In this document: piece by piece, positions 1 to 37,867 of the stretch | Position numbering within the stretch: position 1 is the first letter of the stretch | Layout: each line of letters begins with the position of its first letter | IMG/VR virus record: IMGVR_UViG_3300016667_000302 | Span: 1-37,867 of that record | Source: a virus | Taxonomy: Duplodnaviria > Caudoviricetes | DNA: 37,867 nt | Strand: one strand, 5' to 3' | Position numbers and translations under genes: made by a program | Notes under the pieces: generated by a model | What the model saw: the letters and a program-made list of their open reading frames with translations, nothing else | Told to the model about the DNA's origin: nothing | The model's database searches: none

Positions 1-123
1 TCATTCCGCTGTCATGACCTTGCTTGATTCGTAGAATCGTTTTTAAGCCTATCCTCGTCGCTTTGATGGCTTGCTTGGCTCAACCACATCATCCAGATCT
101 TCAAGATCTTGGCTTCATCACCA

Positions 124-162
124 CAAAAGACAAGAGGCAGACCCGATTGGATCTGCCCCTTG
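124..162 (-). terminator. Intrinsic terminator at the end of the replication operon
   Basis: Minus strand CAAGGGGCAGATCC-AATC-GGGTCTGCCTCTTG: 14-bp stem with 2 G.U pairs that form only on the minus strand, followed by TCTTTTG. Confidence 0.7.
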
Positions 163-223
163 AACACACAACACAGAATGAACAACAACTCACTTCATCC
201 CACTCAACCCTTCGGGTTGCAAC
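124..223 (-). ncRNA. Candidate G/U-rich antisense sRNA or 3' UTR element
   Basis: 5' hairpin CAACCC-GAA-GGGTTG, unpaired GTTGTTGTTCATTCTGTGTTGTGTGTT, then the terminator. Complementary to C/A-rich leaders plus AUG of several genes in this genome. Confidence 0.4.
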
Positions 224-373
224 CTATTTCTTGCGCTTGTTTGCTGCTGCTTTCGCTTTCTTCTGAACTGAGTACGCAATGGCAACTGCCTGCTTCTGTG
301 GCTTCCCATGCTTCATCTCAGTACTGACATTCTTGCTGAATGTCTTCTGCGAATAACCTTTCTTCAATGGCAT
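224..373 (-). CDS. Small Lys-rich phage protein (49 aa, not in ORF track)
   Basis: Hand translation MPLKKGYSQKTFSKNVSTEMKHGKPQKQAVAIAYSVQKKAKAAANKRKK. Strong SD AAGGAGGTGA overlaps the helicase stop. The KPQKQAVAIA motif is common in small phage proteins. Confidence 0.85.
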   Translation of the reverse strand: MPLKKGYSQKTFSKNVSTEMKHGKPQKQAVAIAYSVQKKAKAAANKRKK

Positions 374-1599: not shown

Positions 1600-2042
1600 A
1601 CCCTAACCCCAACCATTTGAGCGACAGACCTAGCTGGCACCCACTTCCTAGCCCGGTCAACTTCACCCTGCCAGTTGTTAAGGAGGGTCACGACATCCCT
1701 TCGACGGTAGTCGTCCTTAGCCTGAATGGTAGCTGAGTAGTACCGATCAAGCGCAGCAATCTCATCGTCCATGGGTTGTAGGTCCAGAACGGCTTTCAAG
1801 GCTTTCATCTCCTTGGCAGACCACTTTGTAGTTGCTCGTCGGTTGAACCAACGTCCCACCATGGCCATGATCTCGTCTTTCCTTGGTTGCCCTTGGAGAC
1901 AGAACACCTCCTCAACCTGAATGGATTTCCTCACCCATTCGCACAGCAGTTCAACCCTTCTTACTGTGTCTCCATCCTCCCAGCATGGGATTCGTGAGAA
2001 TACTTTGTCGTACTTGTTTAGTATCTGTTCGATTTCGTTCAT
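1596..2042 (-). CDS. Putative replication initiator / helicase-loader-associated protein
   Basis: Immediately upstream of and coupled to DnaB. The C-terminus (RRRDVVTLLNNWQGEVDRA) resembles phage replisome-organiser C-terminal regions. Positional inference. Confidence 0.5.
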   Translation of the reverse strand: MNEIEQILNKYDKVFSRIPCWEDGDTVRRVELLCEWVRKSIQVEEVFCLQGQPRKDEIMAMVGRWFNRRATTKWSAKEMKALKAVLDLQPMDDEIAALDRYYSATIQAKDDYRRRDVVTLLNNWQGEVDRARKWVPARSVAQMVGVRV

Positions 2043-2971
2043 TGTGTGTTGTGTTGGAGTTTTTGAAGCAAAACCATAAATGCTTTCTCTGCTGTAGCTG
2101 GAACAACTCCGTTGCCTAGAAGTCTGAGTTCATCGGTCCGATTGTCACAGGACTCGCACAACTCGGCATAGTCCATCCCACCGGTAGTCCCATCAGGGTT
2201 TCCACCCAGCGAGGATTCAGCTTCCAATTCTGCGTCCGTTCCACCATCGGCGTCAGCTCCTTGTATTCCCGCCCCTCCTGACCACGTCCGCTCTTGTGAT
2301 CCCTGGCAGTTGGCGTTGCCCACGACTCTAGGCGGCTCCCATGCGTGCTGGGGTTCGCCAGGGCGGCTTGGCCATTGAGTTCTCCACGTCTCGCCATCGC
2401 CGATAGGCACTTGCTCTGTTGGCTCTCGCCACCAATCCGGTAGCTGTCCTCGTTCGCCGTGACGGTAGGCCAAGATAAACACCCGCTTTCGCTGGTGAGG
2501 CGCACCGACTTCAGCCGCGCTGAATATTCCCCACGCAACTCTATAACCCATTCCGACCAAATCTTGGATGACGTTGGACAACCCCATGCTGATATGTCCT
2601 TCGACGTTTTCAAAGAAGCAGAGTCTGGGGCGCATAGCGCGAATTCCATCTGCAATCCAAGGCCATAGGTGTCGTGGGTCGTCCTTCCCTCGCCTGAGTC
2701 CGGCTCCGCTGAATGGCTGGCAGGGGTAGCCTCCAGATAGGATGTCCACCAGTCCTCGAAACTTTGCCCAAGGGAATGACTTGAGATCACTCCAGATCGG
2801 AGCCGCATCAAGTTGCCCACCTTCCATTCTCGCAAGTAACACTTCGCAGGCGAAGGCTTCGATCTCCGCATAAGCGATTGTTCGCAGGCTTTTGATGCTT
2901 CGCTTGAGTCCAAGGTCAATGCCTCCGTACCCGGAGCAAAGGCTGATATGAGTTGCTTTGGTAGTATCCAC
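2039..2971 (-). CDS. C5-cytosine DNA methyltransferase, catalytic (alpha) chain
   Basis: Motif I SLCSGYGG, IV GGYPCQPFS, VI FFENVEG, VIII HQRKRVF, X LRLLGNGVVP. Motif IX is missing in this frame. Likely GTG start at 2971. Confidence 0.92.
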   Translation of the reverse strand: MDTTKATHISLCSGYGGIDLGLKRSIKSLRTIAYAEIEAFACEVLLARMEGGQLDAAPIWSDLKSFPWAKFRGLVDILSGGYPCQPFSGAGLRRGKDDPRHLWPWIADGIRAMRPRLCFFENVEGHISMGLSNVIQDLVGMGYRVAWGIFSAAEVGAPHQRKRVFILAYRHGERGQLPDWWREPTEQVPIGDGETWRTQWPSRPGEPQHAWEPPRVVGNANCQGSQERTWSGGAGIQGADADGGTDAELEAESSLGGNPDGTTGGMDYAELCESCDNRTDELRLLGNGVVPATAEKAFMVLLQKLQHNTQ

Positions 2972-2973
2972 AT
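2116..2973 (-). CDS. Methyltransferase beta chain in an overlapping alternative frame (supplies motif IX and TRD-like segment)
   Basis: LNPRWVETLMGLPVGWT is motif IX, with WPT/WATPTARD segments upstream. The ATG at 2973 overlaps the upstream gene's TGA (TGATG). Same arrangement as M.EcoHK31I alpha/beta. Confidence 0.8.
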   Translation of the reverse strand: MWILPKQLISAFAPGTEALTLDSSEASKACEQSLMRRSKPSPAKCYLREWKVGNLMRLRSGVISSHSLGQSFEDWWTSYLEATPASHSAEPDSGEGRTTHDTYGLGLQMEFALCAPDSASLKTSKDISAWGCPTSSKIWSEWVIELRGEYSARLKSVRLTSESGCLSWPTVTANEDSYRIGGESQQSKCLSAMARRGELNGQAALANPSTHGSRLESWATPTARDHKSGRGQEGREYKELTPMVERTQNWKLNPRWVETLMGLPVGWTMPSCASPVTIGPMNSDF

Positions 2974-3428
2974 CAAACAGGATCAACTTGCTTCTTCTCC
3001 TCAAACTTCATCTCAGTGTAGGCCACACCTGATGTCACCTTCACGATATGGTTCTCCATCTTGAAGTGTTCGTCAGCCCACTTCTTCTTTGCAATAGCCT
3101 CCCACAACTCACCAACAACTGCATTCGCCCAGAACTGCCCCTTGCTGAAGTAGCCGATTTGGTAACTGCTTGTGACAGTGCTTTTCCGATCTAAGACCTG
3201 CTCGTTGGTTAGGACTGAGTTGTCAACCCAAGGCCTTCCAGTGTTTCCGTGTGGCCTATAAAAGATGATTCTTCCACAAGAGAAGTGTTTCCATGCCTTC
3301 CATCCATCGGTTTCTGCTGTCTCAAGCTGAACCCTGTAATCCTCATAAGGCATTGTGTTGCAGCTCAACTCCATCCTGTCCCATCCAGGCTCCCCTGTGG
3401 CCGGGTGGCATACGTTTAAATGGATCAT
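2973..3428 (-). CDS. Hypothetical protein
   Basis: 151-aa ORF with overlaps at both ends. Confidence 0.7.
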   Translation of the reverse strand: MIHLNVCHPATGEPGWDRMELSCNTMPYEDYRVQLETAETDGWKAWKHFSCGRIIFYRPHGNTGRPWVDNSVLTNEQVLDRKSTVTSSYQIGYFSKGQFWANAVVGELWEAIAKKKWADEHFKMENHIVKVTSGVAYTEMKFEEKKQVDPV

Positions 3429-4066: not shown

Positions 4067-4248
4067 ACCTCTTCAACCTCCGCGAGAATCTCCTCCATCT
4101 TCCTGAGCCTCTGGTCCCTTTGCTCTTGGTAGTCTGCCGCCAGCCCACGCTTCTTGAGCCAGTTGAGTAGTGCTCGATCAGTCTGCTGGCATTTGAATGT
4201 CTTTGGTGGAGTCCAGTCCACCCGGTCTAGTGCTTCGTTGGTTTTCAT
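4063..4248 (-). CDS. Hypothetical protein
   Basis: 61-aa ORF with C/A-rich leader and ATGA overlap with the recombinase. Confidence 0.7.
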   Translation of the reverse strand: MKTNEALDRVDWTPPKTFKCQQTDRALLNWLKKRGLAADYQEQRDQRLRKMEEILAEVEEV

Positions 4249-4270
4249 GTGTTGTGTGTGTTAAACAAGA

Positions 4271-4501
4271 TTAGCTTGCAGTATTTACTGGAACTTCTGT
4301 GCATTTAATTGCTGTTGTGATCCTTACAATCTTCCAGTCATAGTATGGTTGACTTTTCTTGAGTTGATTAAGGCGTTCAATCGCCTCATCGCGGTCAGTA
4401 TAATTATAACATCCGCACCAGAACTGTTGATTCTCAAATGTTCCAACCGAGAAGTCGTCTTGAATGCGAGATCTGGTATCTAGGTATTCTTTAAAGTTCA
4501 T
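4271..4501 (-). CDS. Hypothetical protein
   Basis: 76-aa ORF with C/A-rich leader. Confidence 0.7.
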   Translation of the reverse strand: MNFKEYLDTRSRIQDDFSVGTFENQQFWCGCYNYTDRDEAIERLNQLKKSQPYYDWKIVRITTAIKCTEVPVNTAS

Positions 4502-4518
4502 TATGTTGTGTGTGTTGG

Positions 4519-5900: not shown

Positions 5901-6657
5901 AGATCTCGATCTCCTTGGTTGAGTTGTCGTAGCCGGGCCAATCCTGGATGGTGATACATTCCTTGACCCTATCGAGATCCAGTCGGATCTGTTGGATAGC
6001 CGTTTGGATGCATCCTTTGGCGATGCGGAAAGCCTGACAGGCATATGGAGCCTCTTTCTCCACTGCCAAGAACGTGAAGTCCCAGCAGCCTGTCACCATG
6101 CCATAAAATGCAGCCTGACGAGCGTAGCCGAATGCTTGGCATGATTTGGCGAAGGATGCTGCGCTGGCATCCTCAGTCGTTTTGATGTCGATGATCTTGC
6201 AGCTCATGCAGTCAATGCGAGCCTTGAGAAGTAGGCCGGTTGATGGGTCTTTCCTGAACACTGACACCTCAGTGCTTCCAGCCATTATTTCCTTGCCCAA
6301 TGGATGCTCATGCACGGCTCCTGCAATGGAGGTGATCCTTTCAGCATCTTCAAGGTCAATAACTGGCAGAGTTTGAGCATCCCTCCATGCCTTGCCTTCC
6401 TTGGTGTTGAACTTCATCCCCTCTGGGCGAATGACGTAGCCTTTGGGCCTGTGCGTCTCAAGGATGGCTTGATGCACCAATCGCCCAAACAGAAGGGCTG
6501 GACTGTCCTTATGTTCAGGATTTTCCAAGGCATTCAAGTAATGCCTAGGGCTACGCCTCATCAACTTGAGGGTTGAGTTATTTATCCCAGGTGCAGACCT
6601 GTAGATCTCTTCAGGAAGACCGTAGTAAATGCCTTCCGTTGCTGGTTTCCATTCCAT
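5893..6657 (-). CDS. RecE/exodeoxyribonuclease VIII-like PD-(D/E)xK nuclease
   Basis: NSTLK..RSPRHY, ALLFGRLVH, EVSVF, LKARID, IDIKTT, YARQAAFY, AVEKEAPY. Confidence 0.9.
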   Translation of the reverse strand: MEWKPATEGIYYGLPEEIYRSAPGINNSTLKLMRRSPRHYLNALENPEHKDSPALLFGRLVHQAILETHRPKGYVIRPEGMKFNTKEGKAWRDAQTLPVIDLEDAERITSIAGAVHEHPLGKEIMAGSTEVSVFRKDPSTGLLLKARIDCMSCKIIDIKTTEDASAASFAKSCQAFGYARQAAFYGMVTGCWDFTFLAVEKEAPYACQAFRIAKGCIQTAIQQIRLDLDRVKECITIQDWPGYDNSTKEIEIYV

Positions 6658-6836
6658 GTTGTGTGTGTGTTGTGCGCCCCCGGACGACGCTGGGTTTGCC
6701 GGACTAATATTTTGTGTGTGTGTTGCGAGGCTCAGGCTGCCTCTGGTTTCCTGACTGCGAAAGTGGGATGGGCTTTTATGCGCTTACCCATCGGGCGATG
6801 TCTTAACCAGGGAACCCCGGCGCAATACCCAATTTG
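6658..6836 (-). promoter_or_regulatory. Structured non-coding leader upstream of the RecE-like gene
   Basis: About 180-nt gap in a dense genome, with several hairpins and two C/A-rich tracts. Confidence 0.4.
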
Positions 6837-32376: not shown

Positions 32377-32475
32377 CGCCCTAGGTGGGGATCGAACCCA
32401 CGGCATTCGCTTTCATCCCAGCTTTTCGGTCCTTAACCATGAGGGAGCGATGGTCTACCACTGAACTACTAGGGC
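32377..32475 (-). ncRNA. tRNA-like RNA with a 34-nt loop replacing the 7-nt anticodon loop
   Basis: Acceptor GCCCTAG/CTAGGGC, U8-A9, D arm GTTC-AGTGGTA-GACC (1 mismatch), stem TCGCT/AGCGA, 5-nt variable loop, T arm GTGGG-TTCGATC-CCCAC, discriminator G, no encoded CCA. Confidence 0.85.
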
Positions 32476-34606: not shown

Positions 34607-35056
34607 TTAAACATCTATAACCTTGCCAGCCCCTGAAATGCCTGCTGGGCCGCTTGCGTCAGTCAGAGATACCTGGTGCCTGACCTCATGAATTGAGCTG
34701 GCTTGCCCTGAGAGAGCCATATACTTGTCCAGTGCCACCCCCATTACAACGGGTAAAACCCCCGGTGGGAGGCTATCAATCTCCTCGCTCATCCTCTCCA
34801 TGGCTTGGTTGGCCAAATGGAGCAACCTCGCTGGCGTGCGGGTGCTGTAGTACTTGGTCGCAAAAGCGGGGTTGTCTTGCACCTCTTTGGTGCGGATTGC
34901 CATCAATGTCCGCTTATTGATCCCAACTTGCTCCGCAGTCTCGTTAATGCCTCCCCCTTTGGCCAGCAAATCAAGCGCGCGCTGCCTCACCTCCTCGGGG
35001 ATTAGCTCGCCAGTGTGTACCTTTGTCCCGTCCGTCCGCAGTAGGTCGCTTGCCAT
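34607..35056 (-). CDS. Terminase small subunit candidate (N-terminal HTH)
   Basis: LLAKGGGINETAEQVGINKRTL HTH, helical middle with GVALDK, C-terminal KVIDV. ATG 35056 with C/A leader (alternative GTG 35080). Confidence 0.65.
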   Translation of the reverse strand: MASDLLRTDGTKVHTGELIPEEVRQRALDLLAKGGGINETAEQVGINKRTLMAIRTKEVQDNPAFATKYYSTRTPARLLHLANQAMERMSEEIDSLPPGVLPVVMGVALDKYMALSGQASSIHEVRHQVSLTDASGPAGISGAGKVIDV

Positions 35057-35594: not shown

Positions 35595-36517
35595 TCCAGC
35601 CCCCCTTCCAATTCTTTTTTGCTCGCAACCTTCCTCGCAATCGTGAGCGCCAGCAATTGAGCTGATGGGTTCCCGGTACGCATTAACTCGGGCAGTGTCG
35701 CGCTGTCTCCTATCCCATGCGTTGCCTGAAATTGAGCGATGCCCGGAGAGCAAAACCCGAGTGCTTTTGCGTCCTTTATCGTTGCAACAACGCCGTTACA
35801 CAGTCGCGCAACCAGTTTTGCCCTTCTGCTGATTTTTGCTGCGTTGCGTGTAAGCTTTTGCTGGCGCTCAATTGCATTCAGTTTTTTCCTCAGCCCCCTT
35901 TGGGCATCCTCTGGCGATTTAACGGAGTGGTAACAAACACCGTCCTTGTGCGCAATCCAGCCTGCCTCTGACAGGATTTTTTGTCCGCATTTGCGGACCC
36001 AAACGCACCTGCCATCCGGGAGCAGACTTATTAATGGCAACCCGTCCCTCGCGGATGCCTCCCTGATTTGCTGGTTGTCTGCCAGCCCGATTACCCCCTC
36101 AATGTTTAGGGCCACGCAATGGATGGCATCCGTTTTGCGATAGGATTTTTTCCCGGGATAGCTGGCGCCTAGACTGGTCCGTGTGTCTGCCATCGCCTCA
36201 CACTCTACCCAATCCACCCTAAACTCGGTTTCGCCCGAGTACATCCCTCCCATTTTTACTGCAGTCCTACCTAGCGTTTCCGCAGTTTTAACAATTCGCT
36301 CCGCATTCTCCCGCCTGTCCTTTGGGATTCTGGCTGTCGCTTCCCGCGCAATTCTGACCGCATCAACAGCTATTTTTAGCATCTCAACGGTTTCCTCCGG
36401 TATCCGTAAACATTTGATTTTCTCGGTCATTTCATCTTGCGCCGCCTGCAGTTTTGACTCCCACTTTTGCGCGTGGAGTGTGCGTTTAATATCGTTTACT
36501 ACTGTTTCCGGTTTCAT
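35591..36517 (-). CDS. Hypothetical protein
   Basis: 308-aa ORF with a long C/A-repeat leader and C-terminal LGFCSPGIAQF motif. Confidence 0.8.
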   Translation of the reverse strand: MKPETVVNDIKRTLHAQKWESKLQAAQDEMTEKIKCLRIPEETVEMLKIAVDAVRIAREATARIPKDRRENAERIVKTAETLGRTAVKMGGMYSGETEFRVDWVECEAMADTRTSLGASYPGKKSYRKTDAIHCVALNIEGVIGLADNQQIREASARDGLPLISLLPDGRCVWVRKCGQKILSEAGWIAHKDGVCYHSVKSPEDAQRGLRKKLNAIERQQKLTRNAAKISRRAKLVARLCNGVVATIKDAKALGFCSPGIAQFQATHGIGDSATLPELMRTGNPSAQLLALTIARKVASKKELEGGLE

Positions 36518-36524
36518 TCTGAGT

Positions 36525-36549
36525 GTGTTGTGTTGTGTTGTGTTGTGTT
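36525..36549 (-). repeat. (AACAC)5 tandem repeat in a translation leader
   Basis: Five perfect GTGTT units on the plus strand just upstream of ATG 36517. Confidence 0.85.
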
Positions 36550-37616: not shown

Positions 37617-37867
37617 TCAGCACCCCCTTCCGTGTCAAAGCGTACCAGATTGCGAACTAGTAACTCCTCAAAGCCGTAAACAGCTTTTTCCCCGCAGCAT
37701 TCGCACTCATACCGCCTAGCGTCAGGTTCAACGCCATAGGCTAGTTCCCCGCATGATAGACACCAGCCCTCTCCATTGTCGGAGTAGCTCATAAATTCCT
37801 GAGTGTCCACAAACACGGGGAGCCGTCCCGTTTTTCCGTTTTTTGCCCTGTAAGGTTGGCTTGTCAT
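37613..37867 (-). CDS. Small zinc-ribbon protein
   Basis: GWCLSCGE...VEPDARRYECECCGE..VYG, two CxxC pairs. Confidence 0.8.
   Translation of the reverse strand: MTSQPYRAKNGKTGRLPVFVDTQEFMSYSDNGEGWCLSCGELAYGVEPDARRYECECCGEKAVYGFEELLVRNLVRFDTEGGAE

What the first reader, a model, noticed from the sequence alone, without database searches (positions are those of the whole stretch)
124..223. G/U-rich 3' RNA antisense to the phage's own C/A-rich start regions (GcvB-like seed)
Seen: between the last gene and the terminator the minus strand reads GTTCATTCTGTGTTGTGT (183-166). This is complementary at 17/18 nt to the leader plus AUG of the initiator-like gene (plus strand 2037-2054 GTTCATTGTGTGTTGTGT). 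It also matches 12/12 at 4248-4259, and shorter or split matches occur at about 4497, 6657 and 36513. It is the only inverted copy of the leader motif I noticed outside coding regions, and it sits unpaired between a hairpin and a terminator, as sRNA seeds do. Established: GcvB uses a G/U-rich seed to silence C/A-rich translational enhancers. Inference: a 3'-derived sRNA or long-range cis pairing shuts off replication/early gene translation once the operon is fully transcribed, and might also hit host mRNAs. Caveat: low complexity inflates matches.
Basis: partly seen in the sequence, partly recalled or inferred. Interest (0 to 1): 0.72.

Follow-up and report, generated by a model that had tools for sequence, protein, structure and literature searches.

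The report
Phage RNA tail mirrors own leaders
A freshwater-type uncultured phage keeps, at the end of its replication genes, a conserved 100-base stretch that is the mirror image of the start signal on a set of its own genes, so it likely makes an RNA that would damp their translation, although no transcript has been seen and a small gene on the opposite strand remains possible.

Summary
The matches are real and not chance. The plus-strand reading at 163-182 scores like the phage's own ACA leaders (20.0 bits; 0 of 60 simulated strands reach it). Its minus-strand mirror is the best binder of those leaders among 7,568 sense-strand windows. In two related variants 121-223 is about 95% identical, against 60-70% for the spacer beyond the terminator. 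Changes fall in unpaired positions. The plus-strand ORF shows no synonymous change in its first 15 codons and has no homologue. This favours a minus-strand 3'-end RNA, with the exonuclease VIII start as best predicted target. Against: indels hit the seed while the initiator leader stays fixed; inverted real leaders pair about as well; a conserved plus-strand promoter-like site points at AUG 178; there are no distant relatives, covariation or transcript. Verdict: a plausible GcvB/OppZ-like brake on the phage's own genes (about 50%), not a member of any Rfam family.

The parts
124..223 (-). Whole candidate 3'-end RNA: hairpin 1, middle hairpin, free G/U tract, intrinsic terminator
   Evidence: Fold of 115-230 minus -38.7 kcal/mol, z -3.31. 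About 5 changed columns of 103 (121-223) against 31 of 78 and 23 of 78 in the spacer 43-120 (Fisher p 7e-9 and 3e-6)
205..219 (-). Hairpin 1 (6 bp, 3-nt loop), 4 nt after the small gene's stop; possible 5' protector of a processed RNA (inferred)
   Evidence: Invariant in 3 of 3 variants; folds about equally on both strands (-7.7 and -6.9)
175..201 (-). Middle hairpin (7-8 bp, two G-U pairs, 11-nt G/U loop) predicted to mask the anti-AUG segment
   Evidence: -6.2 on minus, -1.6 on plus; 7 pairs invariant in 3 of 3; 605 of 5000 shuffles fold as well
163..174 (-). Free G/U tract, predicted toehold for ACA leaders
   Evidence: Unpaired probability 0.7-1.0; alone -9.9 to -18.2 kcal/mol with the 8 ACA-led starts; carries strain indels at 163-175
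123..162 (-). Intrinsic terminator, 14-bp stem plus U-rich tail
   Evidence: also in the relative; -24.8 minus against -17.2 plus; variation only in the loop
224..373 (-).
   Evidence: phrog_2423, E 1.8e-19; Atlas clusters at 0.95, one with DUF6496 on 11% of members; changes between variants 5 syn/2 non and 5 syn/5 non
163..327 (+). Rival reading: ACA leader, ATG 178 and 49-codon ORF antisense to the small gene
   Evidence: Leader score 20.0 bits; no Pfam or PHROG hit; 2 repeat-protein hits only among 1.84 billion; no Atlas hit; changes mostly non-synonymous, stop moved in L085
9..37 (+). Sigma-70-like promoter match (9 of 12) pointing at ATG 178; also the edge of a long conserved non-coding region
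   Evidence: 0 changes in 34 nt in both relatives; no variant at 4-37 in 4 runs; promoter counts in the region are at chance level (5 found, 5.3 expected)
6638..6666 (-). Best predicted target: start region (-9 to +19) of the exonuclease VIII-like gene
   Evidence: -33.5 hybrid, -23.3 net; best of 3,783 sense windows by 8 kcal/mol; 0 of 300 shuffles; phrog_412
4229..4259 (-). Predicted target: start region of the 61-aa ORF at 4248
   Evidence: -21.8 net; 12/12 exact
2027..2054 (-). Predicted target: start region of the initiator-like gene at 2042
   Evidence: -17.5 net; 17/18; leader unchanged in relative L083
4496..4513 (-). Predicted target: start region of the 76-aa ORF at 4501
   Evidence: -15.0 net
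36510..36548 (-). Predicted target: start region of the 308-aa early gene at 36517
   Evidence: -15.9 net

Best explanation
The phage keeps a conserved hairpin-G/U tract-terminator unit at the 3' end of its replication operon, and this unit likely acts as an RNA that would pair with the ACA leader and start codon of several of the phage's own genes and lower their translation once the operon has been read to its end. Shown by sequence: the unit, its conservation, its complementarity and the ACA leaders. Predicted: the three-stem fold, a free 12-nt toehold (174-163), and opening of the middle hairpin so that the anti-AUG segment covers the start codon. Strongest predicted targets are the exonuclease VIII, 4248, initiator, 36517 and 4501 starts. 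Inferred: transcription through the unit, release by processing behind hairpin 1 (no internal promoter found) or action as a message tail, and delayed negative feedback on recombination and replication genes. SD-led and most structural genes would be spared, but the small-terminase start also has an ACA-type leader.
For: Not chance: 20.0 bits under the leader matrix, 0 of 60 simulated strands reach it, and it scores at or above the held-out real leader in 7 of 8 leave-one-out tests. Best of 7,568 sense 30-mers against the 8 ACA starts (-23.2; mean -9.0, sd 2.5); 8 of 300 dinucleotide shuffles as good. The 8 ACA starts rank 1-8 of 42 starts by net energy. Best of 142 pre-terminator stretches in 45 records. 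Constraint at nucleotide level ends at the minus-strand U tail. All four change events against the relatives (203, 175, 164-163, loop) fall outside the 27 consensus pairs, and population variants in 4 runs of one study fall at the same places. G-U pairs favour the minus strand for the terminator and middle stem. In the 15 codons where the plus ORF overlaps nothing there is no synonymous change (p about 0.007 at the dnaB rate) and one non-synonymous change. The unit stays with the small gene when an extra gene is inserted upstream (L085).
Against: No covariation: 0 of 27 pairs show a compensatory change. The seed carries indels at 163, 169, 171 and 175 while the initiator leader is unchanged in L083, so pairing weakens (mean -23.3 to -21.5 and -20.3). 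Seeds are usually the most conserved part (GcvB R1). Reverse complements of real leaders pair about as well: 2 of 8 beat the element on the other seven, and their best single values (-34.0, -35.6) match its -33.5, so the pairing does not separate 'regulator' from 'inverted leader'. The plus strand folds with z -4.28 against -3.31 for minus. A plus-strand promoter match is invariant. The 8 targets were chosen by their likeness to the motif, so their top rank is partly circular. Only three distinct close variants were found, and no homologue in 87 sources or 40 further records.
Confidence: 0.5

Rival explanations
1. The motif is a true plus-strand start. A promoter at 9-37 drives an RNA with a strong ACA leader and a 49-codon ORF that runs antisense into the small gene and the dnaB end. 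Translation would stabilise an OOP-like antisense RNA, or transcription would interfere with the operon's 3' end; the peptide itself need not matter.
For: Leader scores like real ones. All indels lie upstream of the ATG, none in 178-223. The frame stays open in 3 of 3 variants. Promoter match is invariant and its first population variant is at 38, just after the -10 box. Distant relatives carry real opposite-strand ACA-led genes downstream of dnaB.
Against: No protein-level selection: 6 of 7 and 6 of 8 changed codons are non-synonymous and the stop moves in L085. No homologue. The promoter block is the edge of a longer conserved region, not a discrete site, and such matches occur at chance level. 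It does not explain invariance of third positions at 178-223.
Confidence: 0.22
2. A relic: an inverted copy of a gene start, possibly the initiator's, caught in the 3' UTR and kept only because hairpins and terminator stabilise the small gene's message, or because the block moved recently between strains. The complementarity has no regulatory effect.
For: Indels collect in the repeat tract. One contig extends the likeness to the initiator leader by further letters (table 7). L195 keeps a gene-less ACA leader before a terminator. The small gene is also unusually alike between variants (6-9% against 9-15% for dnaB). 9 of 35 crude stop-to-terminator gaps were 60 nt or more.
Against: The loop 193-183 and the tract are kept without substitution while the neighbouring spacer is 30-40% diverged. 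An antisense copy of strong leaders in a transcribed 3' end would be expected to pair whether selected or not (inference).
Confidence: 0.2
3. A DNA-level site: 166-183 and 2037-2054 are inverted repeats around initiator, dnaB and the small gene, and recombination (the phage has a serine resolvase and an exonuclease VIII) flips the module under the plus-strand promoter; or the palindromes bind a protein.
For: The repeats share leader and ATGAAC, so a flip would give an intact initiator start (sequence); resolvase PF00239.
Against: The repeat is only 18 nt and is broken further by the common deletion at 175. It has none of the dyad form recalled for serine-recombinase sites (recalled, no call). 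L002, L083 and L085 share the window's order.
Confidence: 0.08

Closest known systems
GcvB sRNA, R1 region (enterobacteria; PMC3879156, abstract and Introduction read)
   Same: G/U-rich stretch complementary to C/A-rich, ACA-containing elements next to start codons of many mRNAs.
   Different: GcvB is a 200-nt, Hfq-dependent, separately transcribed host RNA with an unstructured, highly conserved seed aimed at amino-acid transport genes. Here the unit is phage-borne, about 100 nt, at an operon's 3' end, half masked, variable by indels, and aimed at the element's own genes. No Rfam match.
OppZ and CarZ, 3'-end-derived autoregulatory sRNAs of Vibrio cholerae (PMC9438474, section 14 and passages read)
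   Same: RNA from the 3' end of an operon that represses starts within the same operon, so feedback needs full transcription.
   Different: OppZ has one site in its operon and needs RNase E and Hfq. Here several starts in two phage operons are predicted targets, and processing and chaperone are unknown.
DapZ (Salmonella; passages in PMC4098024 and PMC9438474)
   Same: 3'-UTR sRNA sharing targets with GcvB; that its seed is G/U-rich is recalled, not seen in those passages.
   Different: Has its own promoter before the stop codon and represses host uptake genes; no such promoter was found here.
c4 antisense RNA of phages P1/P7 (passages in PMC8201110) and lambda OOP, aQ, P22 sar (PMC12197685, parts 1-2 of 6 read)
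   Same: Phage RNA that controls the phage's own genes by base pairing; OOP is the model for the plus-strand rival.
   Different: These act on one gene or operon. None seen in those texts mirrors a leader shared by many genes. No Rfam C4 match.
T4 RegB endonuclease (passages in PMC3014915)
   Same: Shuts a class of early messages by attacking a shared initiation-region motif.
   Different: A protein nuclease cutting GGAG, not an RNA.

Membership tests
GcvB (Rfam family) | Match to the covariance model | tested here: not met
   No GcvB match at E up to 10 in 1-600 or at gathering score in the window
GcvB-like mechanism | G/U-rich segment complementary to C/A-rich elements at start regions of several mRNAs | tested here: met
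   (prediction only)
GcvB-like mechanism | Seed free of structure and highly conserved | tested here: inconclusive
   174-163 free, 182-175 paired; no substitutions in 164-202 but indels at 169, 171, 175
GcvB-like mechanism | Hfq dependence; ACA motifs act as enhancers | not testable with these tools
   Host unknown; phage has no Hfq
3'-UTR-derived sRNA (OppZ type) | Shares the intrinsic terminator of an upstream operon and is more conserved than flanking non-coding DNA | tested here: met
3'-UTR-derived sRNA (OppZ type) | Discrete RNA made by processing or an internal promoter | not testable with these tools
   No RNA holder listed; no minus-strand promoter match near the unit
3'-UTR-derived sRNA (OppZ type) | Represses targets in its own operon | not testable with these tools
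   Pairing predicted only
c4 antisense RNA (P1/P7) | Rfam C4 match | tested here: not met
Protein-coding gene from plus ATG 178 | Purifying selection on the peptide or homologues | tested here: not met

The most novel reading that the evidence does not exclude
Phages mark their early, recombination and replication genes with an ACA start tag and end the replication operon with a self-masking 'anti-leader' RNA: a toehold switch that opens only on messages carrying the tag plus AUGAA, giving an RNA-only, delayed shut-off of a whole gene class and possibly of host genes with the same tag.
Probability: 0.35. Interest if true: 0.78.

Novelty: new variant of a known kind. Interest (0 to 1): 0.5.

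Why it matters
The known phage antisense RNAs seen in the papers read act on single genes, and class-wide shut-off of early messages is known from a protein (T4 RegB). An RNA that mirrors a leader shared by many of the phage's own genes would be a compact timer for the early-to-late change and a testable case of GcvB-type enhancer silencing in a virus. Searches for such a report found none, but the library lacks most subscription papers. Unchecked notes from this scan describe like layouts in other phage genomes, so this locus is probably one instance of a wider pattern, and a weaker one than those reported to show covariation.

Tried and rejected
Wider homologues: exact-pattern scans found only the same close phage and one further variant. 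None of 80 loci of the small gene shows the unit in the 150 nt after its stop (read by eye). DnaB, initiator and small-terminase relatives at 51% identity or less lack it at that place (the output of 31 was partly cut). A scan for the 57% DnaB cluster found nothing. BLASTN against 50,697 phage records hit only the small gene and chance 33-mers. A model from 3 near-identical sequences found only its own kind in 87 sources and 0 of 40 records, the latter without a positive control. Analogue screens: 11 discordant leaders in 30 other records, none before a terminator (window found as control); one search missed its positive control and was dropped; the repeat found no rival among 137 stretches of 43 other records. 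Expression: no RNA holder listed; the 4 runs are probably DNA and are contigs of one study, used only for strain variation. No joints were listed over 1-2100, which contigs cannot turn into proof against inversion. Rfam hits at E 6-8 to snoRNA and lncRNA models are chance. The two phmmer hits for the plus ORF are repeat-built sequences. Stop-to-terminator distance was uninformative. Host not identified, so host targeting is untested. No supplements were read.

Full report
Setting. The window is a linear, 93% complete virus record whose long ORFs lie on the minus strand: early genes, terminase, portal, SU10-type capsid, tail and lysis genes, then an exonuclease VIII-like gene, resolvase, methylase, an initiator-like gene and dnaB. 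Eight genes start with an ACA-rich leader and no SD: 2042, 4248, 4501, 5733, 6657, 7777, 8505 and 36517. The small terminase has a similar leader near 35056. The host was not identified.

Observation. The matches are as stated: 17 of 18 at 2037-2054, 12 of 12 at 4248-4259, 10-mers at 4504 and 6657, and a split match at 36513. Three matches at up to 3 mismatches occur against 0.04 expected. A matrix from the 8 leaders gives the plus-strand reading 20.0 bits; 0 of 60 simulated strands reach that, and it equals or beats the held-out leader in 7 of 8 tests. Low complexity therefore does not explain it: it is either a real start or the mirror of one. The claim 'unpaired' is half right. The fold has three stems, and the middle one pairs 182-175 with 201-194, leaving 174-163 and an 11-nt loop free. 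That middle stem is not beyond chance (605 of 5000).

Relatives. Three distinct variants were found: the window, one phage seen in three assemblies (L002, L083, L084) and L085. Over 121-223 about 5 of 103 columns differ, against 31 of 78 and 23 of 78 in the spacer beyond the terminator (Fisher tests, counts entered by hand). Identity falls right after the U tail. Every change lies outside the 27 consensus pairs, but none is compensatory. Contigs from 4 runs of one study vary at the same places: terminator loop 145-147, 163, indels at 169, 171 and 175, and 203. In L085 an extra gene sits between dnaB and the small gene, and the unit stays with the small gene. Nothing like it was seen after 80 other copies of the small gene, in DnaB relatives at 51% identity or less, in 87 sources searched with a model or in 40 further records. 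A second invariant block at 4-37 holds a plus-strand sigma-70-like match, but it continues into a longer conserved region beyond the window's end.

Which strand. The terminator (-24.8 against -17.2) and middle stem (-6.2 against -1.6) use G-U pairs that favour the minus strand, though the shuffle z-score is larger on plus (-4.28; -3.31). The plus ORF from ATG 178 is open in all three variants but is not under protein selection: 6 of 7 and 6 of 8 changed codons are non-synonymous, the stop moves in L085, and its 15 non-overlapped codons show no synonymous change although 109 of 367 conserved dnaB codons do. It has no homologue. The constraint on 178-223 is thus at nucleotide level. In the rival's favour, all indels lie upstream of the ATG, as a tolerant leader would allow.

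Targets. With opening costs, the 8 ACA-led starts rank first to eighth of 42: 6657 (-23.3), 4248 (-21.8), 2042 (-17.5), 36517 (-15.9), 4501 (-15.0), then 5733, 8505 and 7777; the capsid start follows at -9.0 and dnaB and the small gene are positive. The element is the best of 7,568 sense 30-mers and of 142 pre-terminator stretches in 45 records. The exonuclease VIII start pairs from -9 to +19 and is the best of 3,783 windows by 8 kcal/mol. The key control is less kind: the reverse complement of a real leader pairs with the other seven better than the element in 2 of 8 cases and reaches -34 to -36 at best. Pairing alone cannot tell a regulator from an inverted start. The common deletion at 175 weakens pairing while the initiator leader stays the same in L083.

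Mechanism. Best reading (0.5): the operon's 3' end, as a tail or a processed piece of about 100 nt, binds ACA leaders through the free tract, opens the middle hairpin and covers the AUG, giving delayed feedback on recombination, replication and some early genes. Sequence, conservation and complementarity are shown; fold and pairing are predicted; transcription, processing and repression are inferred. Rivals: a translated plus-strand antisense unit (0.22), a relic inverted start (0.2), a DNA inversion or binding site (0.08).

Known systems. It works like GcvB, whose G/U-rich R1 region silences ACA enhancers (PMC3879156, abstract and Introduction), and like OppZ, a 3'-end RNA that represses its own operon (PMC9438474, section 14 and passages). 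It is a member of neither; Rfam gave no match. Phage precedents seen are single-target: c4 (PMC8201110, passages), sar, OOP and aQ (PMC12197685, parts 1-2 of 6). T4 RegB is the protein analogue (PMC3014915, passages). DapZ was seen in passages only. Other papers were seen as search listings only. Four searches for a multi-target phage anti-leader RNA found none. Earlier notes of this scan describe similar layouts in other phage genomes; they give no sequences, I could not test them, and I did not count them as support. Look-ups by place and sequence returned nothing.

Verdict. Real, conserved, non-random; a new variant of a known kind of regulation if it works, with even odds. Interest 0.5.

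Noticed in passing
window 32377-32475 (-); L194 7893-7991: tRNA model match (51 bits) 99 nt long, about 28 nt more than the model, with a CAT triplet near the anticodon position; ARAGORN misses it. It lies right after the RNA ligase gene. Possibly an interrupted tRNA-Met/Ile joined by the phage ligase.
   Followed up: partly
window 2056 (table 7, run X3): One contig leaves the window just upstream of the initiator leader with letters that extend its likeness to the element's plus reading, hinting that the element arose by inverted duplication of this start region.
   Followed up: no
window 135-120 and 35263-35248 (-): The terminator tail and the stretch upstream of the small terminase share 15 of 16 letters, and in L002 both continue with the same changed letters.
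   Followed up: no
window 1-3 and 37865-37867; L002 1740-3130: The record ends exactly at an ATG and its first three bases differ from relatives, which carry about 1.3 kb of non-coding DNA with repeats before the first early gene: the likely origin or terminus region is missing here.
   Followed up: partly
window 2039-3004 and 2116-2976 (-): Two long overlapping frames over the methylase: a C5 methylase hit in one and a 286-aa frame without Pfam hit in the other.
   Followed up: no
L085 reverse strand 1079-1327: Extra 82-aa gene inserted between dnaB and the small gene.
   Followed up: no
L195 1680-1760: An ACA leader without a start codon sits in sense orientation before the early-operon terminator; L196 has such leaders with and without a gene.
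   Followed up: partly
L087 5606-5800: A different structured-looking non-coding stretch between dnaB and the small terminase in a more distant relative; no Rfam match at gathering score.
   Followed up: partly
window 200-190 (-): An invariant three-codon frame (ATG AAG TGA) forms the 5' arm of the middle hairpin; the arm also resembles the AUGAA of the targets.
   Followed up: no
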